Source: Oscillibacter sp.
GTDB taxonomy: Bacteria > Bacillota > Clostridia > Oscillospirales > Oscillospiraceae
DNA length: 64,000 nt
Direction of reading: 5' to 3'
Assembly: GCF_028693505.1 (NCBI RefSeq)
Contig: NZ_JAQUVF010000011.1
Location: 832 to 64,831, forward strand
Position numbers and translations under genes: made by a program
Part shown: positions 38,238-62,700 of the stretch, piece by piece
Position numbering within the stretch: the stretch's first letter is position 1
How the letters are laid out: each line of letters begins with the position of its first letter
Notes under the pieces: generated by a model
The model's database searches: none
Told to the model about the DNA's origin: nothing
The model's input: the letters and a program-made list of their open reading frames with translations, nothing else

Positions 38238-38439
38238 AACGCCCTGCCCCCTGTCAAAATTTGGAAATTGATATGCGCACGCAGCCCGCACCGCGCCGCA
38301 AGGGGCAGGGTGTGGGTATCCTCCGTGTGCAAAGGGCAATGCGCCCCGGACACACGGAGGGTGGTGTGTCTTGATGCAATTTTATGCGCTTTGCGTCAAG
38401 AAGTTGCAAGCGGAATCCGGCCCACGCGGGCCGGACGTC

Positions 38440-39027
38440 TCAATTGAATTCGTTCATGGCCTTCTGGCAGCCGTCCGTCACAATGCGCTCTGCCGCTTCG
38501 ATGGCCCGGTCAAACGTTTCCGCCAGCGCCTTCCGCTCGCCCTGAGAGGGGACCCCGATGACCCAGTCGATCATGTCTCCTCCCTCGCCGGGGGCGCCGG
38601 TGCCGATCTTGATGCGGGGAAATTCCTGGGTTCCCAGATGGGCGATGATATTTTTAATGCCGTTATGACCGCCTGCGGAGCCGGAGGGCCGCACCCGGAG
38701 TTTTCCCACCGGCAGGGACACGTCGTCATAGATCACCAGCACGCGCCCGGCGGGAATTTTATAAAACTGCGCCGCCTCCCGCACCGCCTCGCCGGAGAGA
38801 TTCATATAGGTCTGGGGCTTCATCACAAGGCATTTTGCCCCGGCAAAATCCATCACATTATAAGCGGCCTTGAACTTCACCCGGTTGAGCTTCACGCCCT
38901 GCCGCTGCGCCAGCAGGTCTACGGTGAGAAAGCCCATGTTGTGGCGGGTATGCTCGTATTTCTCCCCCGGGTTTCCAAGGCCGACGATCAGCCAGTCCAC
39001 GGCGGAGGATTTGTTTCCAAGCAGCAT
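38440..39027 (-). CDS. pth: Peptidyl-tRNA hydrolase
   Basis: IVGLGNPG..TRHNMGF, KPQTYMNLSG, YDD and GGHNGIKNII motifs. Confidence 0.97.
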   Translation of the reverse strand: MLLGNKSSAVDWLIVGLGNPGEKYEHTRHNMGFLTVDLLAQRQGVKLNRVKFKAAYNVMDFAGAKCLVMKPQTYMNLSGEAVREAAQFYKIPAGRVLVIYDDVSLPVGKLRVRPSGSAGGHNGIKNIIAHLGTQEFPRIKIGTGAPGEGGDMIDWVIGVPSQGERKALAETFDRAIEAAERIVTDGCQKAMNEFN

Positions 39028-39056
39028 AGAACGCTCCTTTCGGACAAATGGCAGTG

Positions 39057-39288
39057 GAGCAAGGCGGGAAAGAAGTCTTTCCCGCCTTGCTCAGCGTGTC
39101 AAAAAAGTCTTTTCGACACGCTGTGCAAGTTTTTGAAACCCGCAAAAAGTTTCAAAAACTTATGATTGAAAACGAAAGACACCCTTCCTGGGTTTCTTTC
39201 GTAACTATCTTCCTTCCCGTTTCCCGGGATTTCAGGGTTTAATTGATAGCCTGAGCAAGGCGGGAAAGATTTCTTTCCCGCCTTGCTC
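39057..39288. mobile_element. 162-bp MITE-like element, copy C (39092-39253), flanked by a 36-bp duplicated palindrome
   Basis: GAGCAAGGCGGGAAAG-(AAGT/ATTT)-CTTTCCCGCCTTGCTC at 39057-39092 and 39253-39288; shares the core with copies A and B. Confidence 0.82.
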
Positions 39289-39340
39289 TTTTTGGGGTGC
39301 CGCATTGGCGTGCCGCACCGTTTTCTGCGCAGCGGAAAGC

Positions 39341-39696
39341 TTCCGCCTCCCCCGTCCGTCTCCGACGCGAAGGCGCGAAGCGTTTGCGTCGGAGACGTAG
39401 GAAGAACGTAGCGGTGTGAGGAATCGGCAACGCCGGTTCCGAATGAAGCGCAGTTTCTTCCGCGTCCCCCGTCCATCTCCGACGCAAAGGCGCGAAGCGT
39501 TTGCGTCGGAAGAGGAGGAAGAACGTAGCGGTGTGAGGAATCGGCAACGCCGGTTCCGAATGAAGCGCAGTTTCTTCCGCGTCCCCCGTCCATCTCCGAC
39601 GCAAAGGCGCGAAGCGTTTGCGTCGGAAGAGGAGGAAGAACGTAGCGGTGTGAGGAATCGGCAACGCCGGTTCCGAATGAAGCGCAGTTTCTTCCG
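39341..39696. repeat. Tandem array of three 117-bp palindrome-rich units (REP/BIME-like)
   Basis: Units start at 39341, 39458 and 39575. Units 2 and 3 appear identical; unit 1 has a few substitutions. No spacers. Confidence 0.92.
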
Positions 39697-39701
39697 ACGA
39701 C

Positions 39702-40661
39702 TCAGCGGAACAGTTTGGAAATGGAGACCTCCTGATAAATGCGCTCAATGGCCTCGCAGAACATGGGGGCAACAGAGAGATACTTGATCTTGCTGCTGCG
39801 GGAGGCGTCGATCTCCGGCACGGTGTTCAAAAGCGCCAGCTCCTGAATCACGCTGTCGTTGATGCGGTCGATGGCGGGGCCGGAGAGAACGCCGTGGGAT
39901 GCGCAGGCGTGGACGCTCTTGGCGCCGCCGACTTCGATCAGCGCCTTGGCGGCGTTGCACAAAGACCCGCCGGTATCCACCATATCGTCAAACAGGATGC
40001 AGTCCTTGCCGGCCACATCCCCGATGACGTTCATGACCTCGCAGCTGTTGGCCTTTTGACGGCGCTTGTCCACGATGGCCAGATTCATGTGCAGCTTCTG
40101 CGCGAAGGCGCGGGCGCGGGACACGGAGCCAACGTCGGGAGAAACCACCATCATATTCTCGCAGTCGGTGCCAAACTTCTTGGCGTAGTAATCCACGAAA
40201 ATGGGGTTGCCAGCCAGATTGTCCACAGGGATATCAAAGAAGCCCTGAATCTGGGAGGCATGCAGGTCCATGGTCAGCACGCGGTCGGCGCCGGCGGTGG
40301 TCAGCATATTGGCCACCATCTTGGCGGTGATGGGATCGCGGGCCTTGGCCTTGCGGTCCTGCCGGGCATAGCCGAAATAGGGGATGACTGCGGTGATGCG
40401 GCCTGCGGAGGCGCGCTTGAGCGCGTCGATCATGATGAGCAGCTCCATCAGATTGTTGTTGACGGGAGTGCTGGTGGACTGGATCACGAAAACATCACTG
40501 CCGCGGACCGTTTCGTACAAAGAGACAAAAATCTCGCCGTCAGAGAAAGTTCCGACTTCGGATTCACCCAGCTTTGTCCCCATGAGTTTGCAGACTTCCT
40601 CTGCCAGCTTCGGGTTCGCATTTCCGGAAAACACCTTAATATCCTTGCCGTGAGAAATCAT
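39702..40661 (-). CDS. prs: Ribose-phosphate pyrophosphokinase
   Basis: FSDGEI, PYFGYARQDRK, MDLHASQIQGFF, VSPDVG and DDMVDTGGS motifs. Confidence 0.97.
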   Translation of the reverse strand: MISHGKDIKVFSGNANPKLAEEVCKLMGTKLGESEVGTFSDGEIFVSLYETVRGSDVFVIQSTSTPVNNNLMELLIMIDALKRASAGRITAVIPYFGYARQDRKAKARDPITAKMVANMLTTAGADRVLTMDLHASQIQGFFDIPVDNLAGNPIFVDYYAKKFGTDCENMMVVSPDVGSVSRARAFAQKLHMNLAIVDKRRQKANSCEVMNVIGDVAGKDCILFDDMVDTGGSLCNAAKALIEVGGAKSVHACASHGVLSGPAIDRINDSVIQELALLNTVPEIDASRSSKIKYLSVAPMFCEAIERIYQEVSISKLFR

Positions 40662-40741
40662 TGGAAAACGCCCTCTTTCTATATTCTATCATTCTATATT
40701 CTATCATTTTCTAAAACAACGAAATAAACGGAAGGTACGGT

Positions 40742-41869
40742 TCACTGCTCTTTGCCGTGGAGCCGTCTGCGGCGCGCGGCCCATCCCTCCAGATTTTTCT
40801 GTCTGGTCCGTGCCACGGCCAGCGCGTCGGCCGGCACTTCCTCCGTAATGGTGCTGCCAGCGGCGATGTACGCGCCCTGCCCCACCTTGACCGGTGCGAT
40901 CAGGTTCGTATTGCAGCCGATAAACGCGCCGTCCTCAATGGTACAGCGGTGCTTTTGAAATCCGTCGTAATTGGTGGTGATGGTGCCGCAGCCGAAATTG
41001 ACGTTGCTGCCCACATCGGAATCCCCCACATACGTAAGGTGAGACATCTTGGTCCCCTCGCCCAGCGTGCAGTTTTTCAGCTGGACAAACGCTCCCACGT
41101 GGCACCGCGGCCCCACGGTGCAGTTGGGGCGGACATGGGCGTAAGGCCCCACGTCGCACCCATCTCCAAAGGTGCTCCCGTAAACCTGAGAGGCGTTGAT
41201 CTCCACGTCGTCTCCCACCGTGCAGCCGTCCACCACGGCGTTGGGGCCAAGGGTGCAGCCCCGGCCGATGTGCGTCTCGCCCCGCAAAATGGTTCCGGGC
41301 AGGATGGCGGTCCCCCGGTCGATGGTGACCCGGGGGTCAATATAGACGCTGGCAGGGTCCAGAATCCGGACGCCGCCGCGCAGATGCTCTTTGACAACGC
41401 GCTCCCGGAGCAGCGGCTCCAGCTCGGCAATGGTCTCCAGCGAGAAAACCGGCAGCCAACCGGGAACCAGCTCCGCCGCGGCCACCTGATTGGTCATTCG
41501 TTCCTTCCAGCTCTCCTGCAGCTCATAGCCGGGCGCCGCGTAAGCAAACCCCGCTCCCGCCTCCGCCATGGGCAGCGCCGCTCTGGGCAATACCAGTACC
41601 GGGTCCGGACTGTTCAAAAATGCCGTAAGATCCTTTTGCTGCTCGGATACCGTCACATCCGCCTCCGGCGGGAAGCAGTTTTTTGCCTCGGTTGCAAAGC
41701 GGGGACCGCAGACAACAAAAAACCGCTGCACACCGTCAGCCAGCAGTTTCCTGCTCACCCACGTTAAAAGCGGGCAGAAAAGAGCGGTCTCCAGCATAAG
41801 CGGTTTGGAATCTTCCGGGACGGAGGCGTCTTCTTCCAGAAAGAACAAAGCGTTCTTCGGACAACTCAT
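40742..41869 (-). CDS. glmU: GlmU-like protein: intact LbH acetyltransferase domain, degenerate N-terminal uridyltransferase domain
   Basis: C-terminal VGPYAHVRP, SHLTYVGD, NFGCGTITTNYDG and AAGSTIT motifs. The N-terminus lacks LAAGxGTRM and PK. Confidence 0.85.
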   Translation of the reverse strand: MSCPKNALFFLEEDASVPEDSKPLMLETALFCPLLTWVSRKLLADGVQRFFVVCGPRFATEAKNCFPPEADVTVSEQQKDLTAFLNSPDPVLVLPRAALPMAEAGAGFAYAAPGYELQESWKERMTNQVAAAELVPGWLPVFSLETIAELEPLLRERVVKEHLRGGVRILDPASVYIDPRVTIDRGTAILPGTILRGETHIGRGCTLGPNAVVDGCTVGDDVEINASQVYGSTFGDGCDVGPYAHVRPNCTVGPRCHVGAFVQLKNCTLGEGTKMSHLTYVGDSDVGSNVNFGCGTITTNYDGFQKHRCTIEDGAFIGCNTNLIAPVKVGQGAYIAAGSTITEEVPADALAVARTRQKNLEGWAARRRRLHGKEQ

Positions 41870-61854: not shown

Positions 61855-62700
61855 ATGAAGCTGAGACTTTTGGCAGTCCTTTTGGCACTTGCCATGGCCC
61901 TGTCCCTGACCGCGTGCGGGAAGAAGGCCGCGCCGGAGGAGCCCGTGGCGCCGCCGGAGATCACAGAGCCCGCGCCGGAGGACAGCGGTGCGGTGGAGGA
62001 CAGCGACGCGGAGCAGCCGCAGGACGATTTGGAAAGCGACGAGACCCCCGCCGAGACCCCGGATGTGGGCGACGCCGCGGCAGACGCGGATAAGACCCAG
62101 ACGGCAGATACTGCGGAAAAGCCGGCGGCGGATACCGCGCAAAAACCGGTGAGCAAGCCCGTCGAGAAGCCTGCCAAGAAGCCCGTTCAAAAGCCTGCTG
62201 AGAAACCCGTCGAAAAACCCGCCGAGAAACCGGTTGAAAAGCCCGTCGAAAAGCCGGTTGAAAAGCCCGCCGAGAAGCCCGCGGAGCCGGTGAGCACTGT
62301 CGACCTCGGGGGGTTCTATGATACCCTCTCCACCATCGAGACCGCGCCCTCCCTGATGAAGATCGAGGGGGAGAGCGTGGATGCCTTCTACGCCGGGCTG
62401 GGCGACATCCAGACCAAGCAGTGCGCGGTGTACATGGCAATGATCTCCGCCGCCGTGGGGGAGCTGGCTTTGGTGGAGGTCGAGAATGCCGACGATGTGC
62501 AGAAGGTGAAGGACATCTTCCAAAGCCGCATCGACTACCAGGTGGGAGACGACACCAACCCCGGCGCAGCCTTTTATCCAAACAGCATTGAGGGCTGGAA
62601 GAACAACTCCCGCATCGTCTCGAACGGTAACTGCGTCATGCTGGTGGCCTGTGATGGCGCGGATGACGTGGTGGCATCCTTCAACGCGCTGTTTGCGTAA
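61855..62700 (+). CDS. DUF4358-like lipoprotein with an acidic and KPxE repeat linker
   Basis: Lipobox LTAC; C-terminal [23 protein letters not shown]; AAAGGAG RBS. Confidence 0.8.
62143..62286 (+). repeat. 12 x 12-bp coding tandem repeat (KP[AV][EKQS])
   Basis: [48 protein letters not shown]. Confidence 0.9.

What the first reader, a model, noticed from the sequence alone, without database searches (positions are those of the whole stretch)
39341..39696. Spacer-less 3 x 117-bp array of branched palindromes with a GCGAAGC mini-hairpin
Seen: the array begins 5 bp after the prs stop codon. Each unit has TCCGACGCAAA-GG-CGC-GAA-GCG-TTTGCGTCGGA, a second hairpin GGAATCGGC-AAC-GCCGGTTCC enclosed by GGAAGAA/TTCTTCC, and a GTAG upstream of that hairpin. 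117 bp is 39 codons, so some frames stay open. Knowledge: d(GCGAAGC) is an exceptionally stable ssDNA hairpin, and GTAG plus an imperfect palindrome marks REP substrates of HUH/RAYT nucleases. Inference: a clostridial REP/BIME-like family amplified head-to-tail, possibly by rolling-circle-like replication, by an enzyme outside this window.
Basis: partly seen in the sequence, partly recalled or inferred. Interest (0 to 1): 0.68.

Follow-up and report, generated by a model that had tools for sequence, protein, structure and literature searches.

The report
Tandem copies of a folded repeat element

Summary
In detail: 3.1 head-to-tail copies of a 117-bp unit at 39340-39696. Units 2 and 3 are identical and unit 1 differs at 7 positions. 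The array ends 5 nt from the prs stop codon.

It is not a one-off. BLAST finds no other copy in this genome, but a covariance model finds 13 copies at 6 loci here. It finds 12 to at least 58 copies in five other genomes, and hits in 40 of 151 sampled genomes of the order (30 of 97 genera).

The fold is strongly supported. It has a hairpin with an invariant AAACC-A-GCGAAGC-GTTT apex, a purine-rich linker, and a two-tier 3' domain with a hypervariable tip. 95% of cells pair and 24 of 26 pairs show double changes. The fold belongs to the strand that ends in GACGAC, which here is antisense to prs-pth.

None of 29 congeners has the element in the prs-pth gap, so it is a lineage-specific gain. Copies in one genome share sharp ends with unrelated flanks, and show no inverted ends or target duplication. 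RNase P RNA of one genus holds 0, 1 or 2 copies.

Y1/RAYT and IS91-type transposases are absent, reverse transcriptase does not track copy number, and GTAG is not conserved.

Verdict: a new non-autonomous structured repeat family, locally duplicated here, with an unknown mobiliser.

The parts
39340..39456 (+). Unit 1 of the array. It differs from units 2 and 3 at 7 positions, and its first hairpin is extended to 18 bp.
   Evidence: (I6); covariance-model hit 39351-39464, 70.5 bits
39457..39573 (+). Unit 2, identical to unit 3. Hairpin 1 is at 39478-39510 with GCGAAGC at 39492-39498. The purine-rich linker is at 39511-39536. Hairpin 2 is at 39537-39557.
   Evidence: model hit 39468-39581, 85.8 bits
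39574..39690 (+). Unit 3, the one nearest prs.
   Evidence: model hit 39585-39698, 90.9 bits
39691..39700 (+). Terminal tail CTTCCGACGA(C). It closes the outer stem of unit 3 and supplies the family's 3' end motif CCGACGA. The stop codon of prs follows at 39702-39704 on the minus strand.
   Evidence: closing stem CGTC/GACG in the minimum-energy fold
39296..39339 (+). Older, diverged partial copy: a different hairpin 2 (GGTGCCGCATTGGCGTGCCGCACC) plus a tail-like GCGCAGCGGAAAGCTTCCG. The same 'extra 3' piece, then full units' layout occurs at other loci.
   Evidence: read by comparison with the unit tail; the same layout is seen. Inference, since the model did not score it.
39702..40661 (-). prs (ribose-phosphate pyrophosphokinase), context. 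The element's 3' tail abuts its stop codon.
38440..39027 (-). pth (peptidyl-tRNA hydrolase), context. It is the next gene of the same minus-strand operon.
39057..39288 (.). A separate neighbour that is not part of this family: a miniature element between two copies of the conserved prs-pth hairpin GAGCAAGGCGGGAAAGA/TCTTTCCCGCCTTGCTC.
   Evidence: (I4, I5); earlier finding e1-5226217

Best explanation
The array is a local head-to-tail triplication of one copy of a non-autonomous, non-coding, strand-asymmetric interspersed repeat. The repeat is 110-150 nt long and widespread in Oscillospirales.

**Shown**
- The family exists. It is multi-copy and has sharp ends with unrelated flanks.
- It comes and goes at orthologous sites.
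- It keeps one fold through compensatory changes on the strand that ends in GACGAC.
- Its 3' tail lies within a few bases of gene boundaries far more often than its 5' end does.
- The prs-pth copy is a lineage-specific gain.

**Inferred**
- The element spreads as a folded single strand.
- Its invariant hairpin apex (AAACC-A-GCGAAGC-GTTT) is the handle for a trans-acting enzyme that is still unidentified. Phyletic tests argue against a Y1 or Y2 HUH transposase and against a reverse transcriptase.
- Once a copy is in place, arrays grow by slipped-strand or unequal recombination between adjacent units. The very stable hairpins would favour this.
- In this window the element has no promoter of its own. 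It is transcribed only as its reverse complement inside the prs-pth operon RNA. There it is most likely a tolerated passenger that could at most stabilise the 3' end of the prs message.
For: - **Array and fold:**
- **Family in the own genome:** 13 copies at 6 loci, and 4 of those loci hold more than one adjacent copy.
- **Relatives:** 23 of 36 congeners by BLAST, never beside prs or pth.
- **Core motif:** more than 120 stretches hold it, mostly Oscillospiraceae, Dysosmobacter, Oscillibacter and Vescimonas.
- **Copy numbers:** at least 58, 39, 30, 34 and 12 in five genomes.
- **Spread:** 40 of 151 genomes and 30 of 97 genera of the order.
- **Covariation:** 95.3% of cells paired against 67.4% in shuffles. 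24 of 26 pairs change on both sides. Score 0.591 against 0.15, with 0 of 500 shuffles reaching it. Slid controls score 0.05-0.10.
- **Strand:** G.U 67 against A.C 18. The + strand folds better than the - strand.
- **Mobility:**
  - Three copies in one genome share about 112 nt with unrelated flanks, no inverted ends and no target duplication.
  - The prs-pth gap is 73-323 bp without the element in 29 congeners, against 674 bp here.
  - RNase P RNA helix P12 holds 0, 1 or 2 copies within one genus.
  - tmRNA has a copy directly upstream in 19 of 30 congeners, directly downstream in 3, and none in 10.
- **Boundary bias:** the 3' end is within 6 nt of the next feature in 28 of 76 loci. The 5' end is that close in 6 of 76.
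- **Local duplication:** tight arrays are 87-100% alike, against a mean of 62% between loci.
- **No own transcription signals:**
Against: - No mobilising enzyme was found. Y1, Y2 and RT are absent or uncorrelated. This genome has no multi-copy transposase.
- No autonomous parent with the same ends was seen in the richest genome.
- Copies at different loci of this genome are old (55-89% alike) yet still fold. That could mean selection for a function at each site and not only selfish spread.
- The tight fit of the tail to mature RNA ends and stop codons has no demonstrated mechanism.
- The copy number of the window's array could not be checked against reads.
Confidence: 0.66

Rival explanations
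1. The element is a functional structured RNA. It would act as a leader or trailer module, or as a small RNA released by RNase P or other processing from tRNA, tmRNA and rRNA precursors, comparable to the RtT repeats behind tyrT in E. coli. On this reading the window's array is an extra, perhaps inactive, copy.
For: - Covariation is very strong and there is a G.U bias on one strand.
- In 19 of 30 congeners a sense-strand copy sits between the tmRNA promoter and the mature 5' end, so it must be transcribed there.
- Sense copies lie in an rRNA operon between 23S, tRNAs and 5S and inside RNase P RNA.
- Diverged copies within one genome still fold.
Against: - Orientation relative to neighbours is mixed: 18 loci are antisense to both flanking genes against 12 in sense.
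- The window copy and the C10 array are antisense inside operons, with no promoter-like site.
- Dozens of near-identical copies with unrelated flanks occur in some genomes.
- 10 of 30 congeners have no copy at tmRNA, this genome has none upstream of it, and two species of genus g7 have RNase P RNA without it.
- There is no Rfam match.
Confidence: 0.17
2. The units would be REP/BIME-type substrates of a RAYT or IS200/IS605 Y1 HUH nuclease, multiplied by rolling-circle-like copying.
For: - The structure is strand-specific and has an ultra-stable GCGAAGC DNA mini-hairpin (PMC13037366).
- There are no inverted ends or target duplication, and the hairpins are subterminal.
- A GTAG is present in this subfamily.
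- Arrays carry an extra 3' piece upstream.
Against: - PF01797 is absent from the own genome and from the genome with at least 58 copies.
- The Y2 (IS91) transposase is absent from all 12 carriers tested.
- GTAG is not conserved in the family.
- Size and architecture are unlike REPs of 20-40 bp (PMC3733652).
- Copies form head-to-tail arrays and not inverted pairs.
- Orientations are interleaved along a 377-kb contig, so there is no obvious replication-strand bias.
- No conserved target tetranucleotide was seen.
Confidence: 0.05
3. The element is a tiny ORF-less cassette that moves by site-specific recombination of a folded attachment site, in the manner of an integron attC. The 3' domain or tail would be the crossover site, so integration would leave one more tail than bodies and would allow tandem stacking.
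For: - Arrays commonly show an extra 3' domain or tail before the first full unit.
- The 3' domain has a covarying outer stem, a conserved internal loop and a hypervariable tip, formally like an attC.
- The tail abuts stop codons as attC sites do.
- Short tail fragments are reiterated after full copies in the richest genome.
Against: - There is no GTTRRRY/RYYYAAC core.
- No integrase association was examined or found.
- The upstream partial pieces vary in length and often belong to another subfamily, as expected for decayed older copies.
- prs is a core operon gene, not a cassette.
Confidence: 0.08
4. The array is an assembly artefact: one or two real units miscounted by the assembler.
For: Units 2 and 3 are identical over 117 bp, which short-read assemblers can miscount. 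The genome is a 49-contig draft.
Against: - Unit 1 differs at 7 positions, so at least two distinct units are real.
- Arrays of two or three units of the same family recur in many independent assemblies.
- Two independent assemblies of genus g7 each hold two tandem units in RNase P RNA.
Confidence: 0.04

Closest known systems
REP / BIME elements and REPINs with RAYT transposases, including the GTAG- and CGTC-tagged REP superfamilies (PMC3733652, PMC3337134, PMC8266576)
   Same: - Extragenic, structured repeats that sit mostly behind genes.
- Strand-specific folding.
- A CGTC motif at the 5' side of many copies.
- Mosaic, module-wise make-up, as in BIMEs.
- CGTC-tagged REPs also lack a known transposase.
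   Different: - 110-150 nt with three helices instead of a single 20-40-bp palindrome.
- Head-to-tail arrays instead of inverted dimers.
- No RAYT gene in the genome.
- GTAG is not conserved.
- CGTC lies 12-15 nt from the stem, not directly at it.
Rickettsia palindromic elements (RPEs). That they insert in protein-coding genes and in tmRNA and RNase P RNA genes is from my own knowledge and from earlier finding e1-4859816; PMC3733652 only equates two RPE types with CGTC REPs.
   Same: A folded repeat of about 100-150 nt that is tolerated inside stable RNA genes; here it sits in RNase P RNA helix P12 and in the tmRNA leader. The fold is self-contained and closed by a short terminal stem.
   Different: There is no sequence relation. 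No in-frame copies inside proteins were demonstrated here. The phylum is different. This family also shows a strong preference for gene boundaries and forms tandem arrays.
RtT repeats behind tyrT of E. coli (Rfam RF00391)
   Same: Tandem units of more than 100 nt next to a tRNA gene, co-transcribed with it at some loci, with function unexplained.
   Different: There is no Rfam match. The units do not end in a copy of the tRNA 3' end. They occur in both orientations and also far from tRNA genes.
IS200/IS605-derived non-autonomous elements (PATEs) and classical MITEs (Correia, RUP, BOX, ERIC)
   Same: Short, non-coding, multi-copy and folded. Like IS200/IS605 ends, they have no inverted termini and no target duplication. 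Like BOX, modules are repeated in tandem.
   Different: No Y1 transposase is present and no conserved target motif was seen. Unlike DDE-type MITEs, they have no terminal inverted repeats or duplications.

Membership tests
REP/REPIN-RAYT | A short (20-40 bp) palindrome tagged by a conserved GTAG (or CGTC) directly at one end | tested here: not met
   The unit is 117 nt with three helices. GTAG occurs only in this subfamily, and the family consensus there is GGAGCGG. CGTC lies 12-15 nt from hairpin 1.
REP/REPIN-RAYT | A RAYT (Y1 HUH, PF01797) gene in the genome, usually flanked by the repeats | tested here: not met
   No PF01797 match in G000 (97.65% complete) or in G065 with at least 58 copies. 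The same search found matches in 4 other genomes and in 6 control genomes.
REP/REPIN-RAYT | Copies arranged mostly as inverted pairs | tested here: not met
   Clustered copies are head-to-tail. One inverted pair was seen in L067.
IS200/IS605-derived PATE | Subterminal hairpins, no inverted termini, no target duplication | tested here: met
   Three copies with unrelated flanks have sharp ends and neither feature.
IS200/IS605-derived PATE | Insertion 3' of a conserved tetra- or pentanucleotide, and a Y1 transposase available in trans | tested here: not met
   The 20 flanks in G065 show no conserved target. No Y1 gene is present.
Classical DDE-type MITE | Terminal inverted repeats and a fixed-length target-site duplication | tested here: not met
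   Only a 4-5-nt CGTC/GACG complementarity exists between the ends.
IS91 / rolling-circle (Y2 HUH) derivative | A Y2 transposase (PF04986) in carrier genomes | tested here: not met
   0 of 12 carriers have it. There was one hit in a non-carrier, and no control genome rang, so sensitivity was verified only by that hit.
Retro-element copy (RT-dependent) | Presence of reverse transcriptase tracks presence or copy number | tested here: not met
   PF00078 is absent from 7 of 12 carrier genomes, including G065, G135, G171, G053, G190 and G067. It is present in 4 of 12 genomes that gave no match in the stricter order-wide scan.
Any Rfam 15 RNA family (incl. RtT RF00391) | A covariance-model match | tested here: not met
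   No relevant hit at E <= 1 in the window region or in 11 other loci with copies.
Integron attC | RYYYAAC ... GTTRRRY core pair, and an IntI integrase | tested here: inconclusive
   The outer stem reads GCAAG/CTTTGC-type, which does not fit GTTRRRY by eye. The integrase was not searched for.
Interspersed mosaic repeats (BIME/BOX-like) | Independent modules recombined in different combinations; modules repeated in tandem | tested here: met
   Hairpin 1 alone occurs in other mosaics. A 3' domain alone occurs in C13. Hairpin-1 subfamilies are swapped in G065. The tip of hairpin 2 is swapped between adjacent units in RNase P RNA.

The most novel reading that the evidence does not exclude
The family could be a new kind of mobile or recombining element. 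It would travel as a folded single strand and home to the exact edges of genes: mature 5' and 3' ends of tRNA, tmRNA, 5S/23S rRNA, a helix tip in RNase P RNA, and stop codons. It would use a host-encoded or still unrecognised enzyme that is neither an HUH transposase nor a reverse transcriptase. It might work as an attC-like, ORF-less cassette, with the invariant GCGAAGC-capped hairpin as the recognition handle.
Probability: 0.15. Interest if true: 0.8.

Novelty: new variant of a known kind. Interest (0 to 1): 0.5.

Why it matters
- Small structured repeats are poorly catalogued in gut Clostridia.
- This family spans at least 30 genera and reaches dozens of copies per 2-Mb genome.
- It sits in the leaders, trailers and even the body of essential RNAs, so it will confuse RNA-gene annotation and the assembly of these MAG-dominated lineages.
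- Its one-sided fit to gene boundaries, together with the absence of every transposase class that normally handles hairpin-ended elements, points to an unknown way of moving or maintaining DNA.
- The 0/1/2-copy series in RNase P RNA and the presence/absence series at tmRNA are ready-made natural experiments.
- For this window alone the consequence is modest: about 400 extra structured bases between prs and pth.

Tried and rejected
- **BLAST of the unit against the own genome:** it found only the array. That would have wrongly suggested uniqueness; the covariance model was needed.
- **Same-species material:** an exact-protein look-up of prs found nothing. Two metagenome pattern scans gave nothing or chance hairpins.
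- **Phage and plasmid collections:** no match.
- **Autonomous parent in the richest genome:** only full-length or truncated non-coding copies were found. The one 5'-only copy is followed by an ordinary gene.
- **Coding reading of the 39-codon period:** rejected (and the periods of sister arrays).
- **RT-mediated joining to mature RNA ends:**
  - I considered it because it would explain junctions at mature 5' ends and CCA ends.
  - I set it aside because RT does not track the family.
  - Filled tmRNA leaders also appear to keep 2-4 nt of the ancestral leader between tail and tmRNA.
  - It does not explain stop-codon junctions.
- **Replication-strand bias:** orientations are interleaved on a 377-kb contig. 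Origin and terminus are unknown, so this is only weak evidence.
- **Literature:** searches for the motif or for Oscillibacter repeats found no description.

Full report
**1. The observation**

Tandem Repeats Finder reports one strong array in the window: 39340-39696, period 117, 3.1 copies, 97% matches, no indels. Cutting it in TRF phase gives units at 39340-39456, 39457-39573 and 39574-39690. Units 2 and 3 are identical. Unit 1 differs at 7 positions.

prs is the minus-strand ORF 39702-40661 and pth is 38440-39027. The array therefore lies in the prs-pth spacer of a minus-strand operon and ends 5 nt from the prs stop codon.

The + strand unit folds clearly better than shuffles: DNA -33.2 kcal/mol (z -3.6) and RNA -59.1 (z -4.0). 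It also folds better than the minus strand, at -28.4 and -53.1. The minimum-energy fold has three parts:
- a short closing stem, CGTC/GACG;
- hairpin 1 with the GCGAAGC cap;
- a second domain made of an outer stem, an internal loop and hairpin 2.

**2. It is one member of a large family**

BLAST finds no other copy in the 2.06-Mb genome. It does find partial 73-85% matches in 23 of 36 genomes of the same genus, and none of these lies beside prs or pth. Reading those loci showed a shared architecture:
- an optional C-rich 5' piece (CCCGTC);
- hairpin 1, whose lower stem varies while its apex AAACC-A-GCGAAGC-GTTT is nearly invariant;
- a purine-rich linker (GGAAGAGGAGGRGCAA);
- AGCGG on both sides of an internal loop;
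- a hairpin 2 that differs completely from copy to copy but is always a hairpin;
- a tail ending in CCGACGA.

A covariance model built from 19 such copies gave these results:

| Search | Result |
|---|---|
| Own genome | 13 copies at 6 loci; includes a second three-unit array (period 123), two adjacent pairs, and single copies that abut a tRNA and the tmRNA gene |
| 57 loci holding the 17-nt core | 71 copies |
| Five other genomes | at least 58, 39, 30, 34 and 12 copies |
| Even sample of the order | hits in 40 of 151 genomes, 30 of 97 genera |

Organism titles are mostly Oscillospiraceae, Dysosmobacter, Oscillibacter, Vescimonas and Butyricicoccus. No Rfam family matches. The papers I searched describe nothing like it.

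**3. The fold is real and belongs to one strand**

On the 71-copy alignment 95.3% of cells pair, against 67.4% after shuffling. 24 of 26 pairs change on both sides. The covariation score is 0.591 against 0.15, and no shuffle of 500 reaches it. Slid controls score 0.05-0.10.

One caveat applies. The alignment was fitted to the model, which favours the structure. The RNAalifold result on an independent MAFFT alignment already gave 16 of 26 pairs with compensatory changes.

G.U-type pairs outnumber A.C 67 to 18 on the strand that ends in GACGAC. That strand is therefore the folded one. In the window it is the + strand, antisense to prs-pth.

**4. It behaves as mobile or dispensable DNA**

- In one Butyricicoccus MAG, three copies share about 112 nt and have unrelated flanks. 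They show no terminal inverted repeats and no target duplication. Twenty further copies confirm sharp 3' ends.
- The prs-pth gap is 73-323 bp in 29 congeners. It contains a conserved hairpin but never this element, and it is 674 bp here. The window's array is therefore a gain in this lineage.
- In another genus of the order, RNase P RNA is 348 nt in two species, 491 nt in one and 625 nt in two. The extra 1 or 2 tandem units sit at the tip of helix P12, on the sense strand, closed by TCGTC/GACGA.
- Of the 30 tmRNA loci fetched from 41 sampled genomes of the window's own genus, 19 have one to three copies in sense orientation between the promoter and the mature 5' end. 3 have a copy on the opposite strand abutting the 3' end, and this genome is one of them. 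10 have none.

**5. A one-sided fit to gene boundaries**

In 76 loci the 3' tail lies within 6 nt of the next called feature in 28 cases. The 5' end does so in 6 cases. Inspection adds tmRNA, 5S and 23S ends that the automatic caller missed. The partners are of three kinds:
- mature 5' ends of tRNA, tmRNA, 5S and 23S on the same strand;
- CCA ends of tRNA and tmRNA on the opposite strand;
- stop codons of convergent genes, as at prs.

Some of these cases share ancestry, for example the tmRNA leader, so the count overstates the number of independent events. Relative to both neighbours the element is antisense-antisense in 18 loci and sense-sense in 12. This orientation-blindness argues against a single RNA-level role. 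I have no demonstrated mechanism for the boundary fit.

**6. How the array arose**

Units in tight arrays (gaps of 1-9 nt) are 87-100% alike. Copies at different loci of this genome average 62%. Since this subfamily has no other copy in the genome, the window's three units must descend from one another locally. The most likely route is slipped-strand mispairing or unequal exchange between neighbouring units.

Pairs of copies separated by 27-35 nt are only 59-77% alike, which indicates independent arrivals at the same spot. The diverged partial copy at 39296-39339 looks like such an older arrival. Comparable 'extra 3' piece, then full units' layouts occur elsewhere.

**7. What moves it**

This is unknown.
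- PF01797 (Y1/RAYT) is absent from this genome and from the richest carrier.
- PF04986 (IS91 Y2) is absent from all 12 carriers tested.
- PF00078 (reverse transcriptase) is missing from most high-copy genomes and present in several genomes without a detected copy.
- This genome has no multi-copy transposase.
- No autonomous parent was found.
- CGTC-tagged REPs, which also lack a known transposase, are much shorter and built differently (PMC3733652).

**8. What it does here**

No promoter-like site lies in 38300-40800. The only terminator-like site is a + strand hairpin at 39253-39288, just upstream of the array. In this window the element is therefore expected to be transcribed only as its reverse complement, within the prs-pth message. 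The open frames across it show no coding signal. I read it as a tolerated passenger. An effect on prs mRNA 3' stability, as known for REPs, is possible but untested.

**9. Limits**

- No same-species sequence was found.
- Many genomes are MAGs, which can lose mobile genes.
- Only three enzyme families could be tested phyletically.
- Earlier notes of this scan describe similar tRNA-linked and stop-codon-linked folded repeats in gut Clostridia. I used them as leads only.

Noticed in passing
window 39057-39092 and 39253-39288; loci L166-L194: A hairpin of the form CAAGGCGGGAAAG-NNNN-CTTTCCCGCCTTG is conserved in the prs-pth spacer of all 29 congeners examined. It sits about 25-35 nt behind the prs stop. 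In this window it is present twice, on either side of a separate miniature element. Its role is unknown; it could be an attenuator, a processing site or a pth leader.
   Followed up: partly
loci L245-L250 (RNase P RNA of another genus of the order): RNase P RNA length is 348, 491 or 625 nt, depending on 0, 1 or 2 tandem copies of the repeat at the tip of helix P12. Adjacent units differ only in the tip of hairpin 2, as if that tip were exchanged as a block.
   Followed up: partly
loci L253-L282 (tmRNA genes of the genus); own copy G000:C6:6215-6578: The tmRNA promoter region carries a conserved palindrome (e.g. AATCGTAACACACTTCC...GGAAGTGTGTTATGATT) that includes the -10-like TATGAT/TATAAT. 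Genomes without a recognisable repeat in the leader sometimes show decayed tail-like remnants there (L255, L256, L261).
   Followed up: no
loci L080, L074, L064, L068: The hairpin-1 module (AAACCAGCGAAGCGTTT apex) also occurs alone inside a different mosaic repeat. It is preceded there by an AATTTGTGCGC...GCGCACAAATT hairpin and followed by other hairpins and a terminator. These genomes apparently shuffle hairpin modules.
   Followed up: no
G000:C26:24900-25500: A 196-bp tandem duplication includes one copy of the repeat (with a plain CGGAG loop instead of the GCGAAGC cap) plus what looks like the 3' end of a coding region. Part of the first copy reads as N.
   Followed up: no
G065 loci L205-L224: In the genome with the most copies, many full elements are followed directly by short reiterations of the tail (…GCGAC CGCGAC AGCGAC…) or by the 3' half of a copy from another subfamily. 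No explanation was tested.
   Followed up: partly
window 62155-62281: A 24-bp (or 12-bp) tandem repeat of 5.3 copies, AAGCCCGTTGAAAAGCCCGCCGAG, probably a peptide repeat inside a gene.
   Followed up: no
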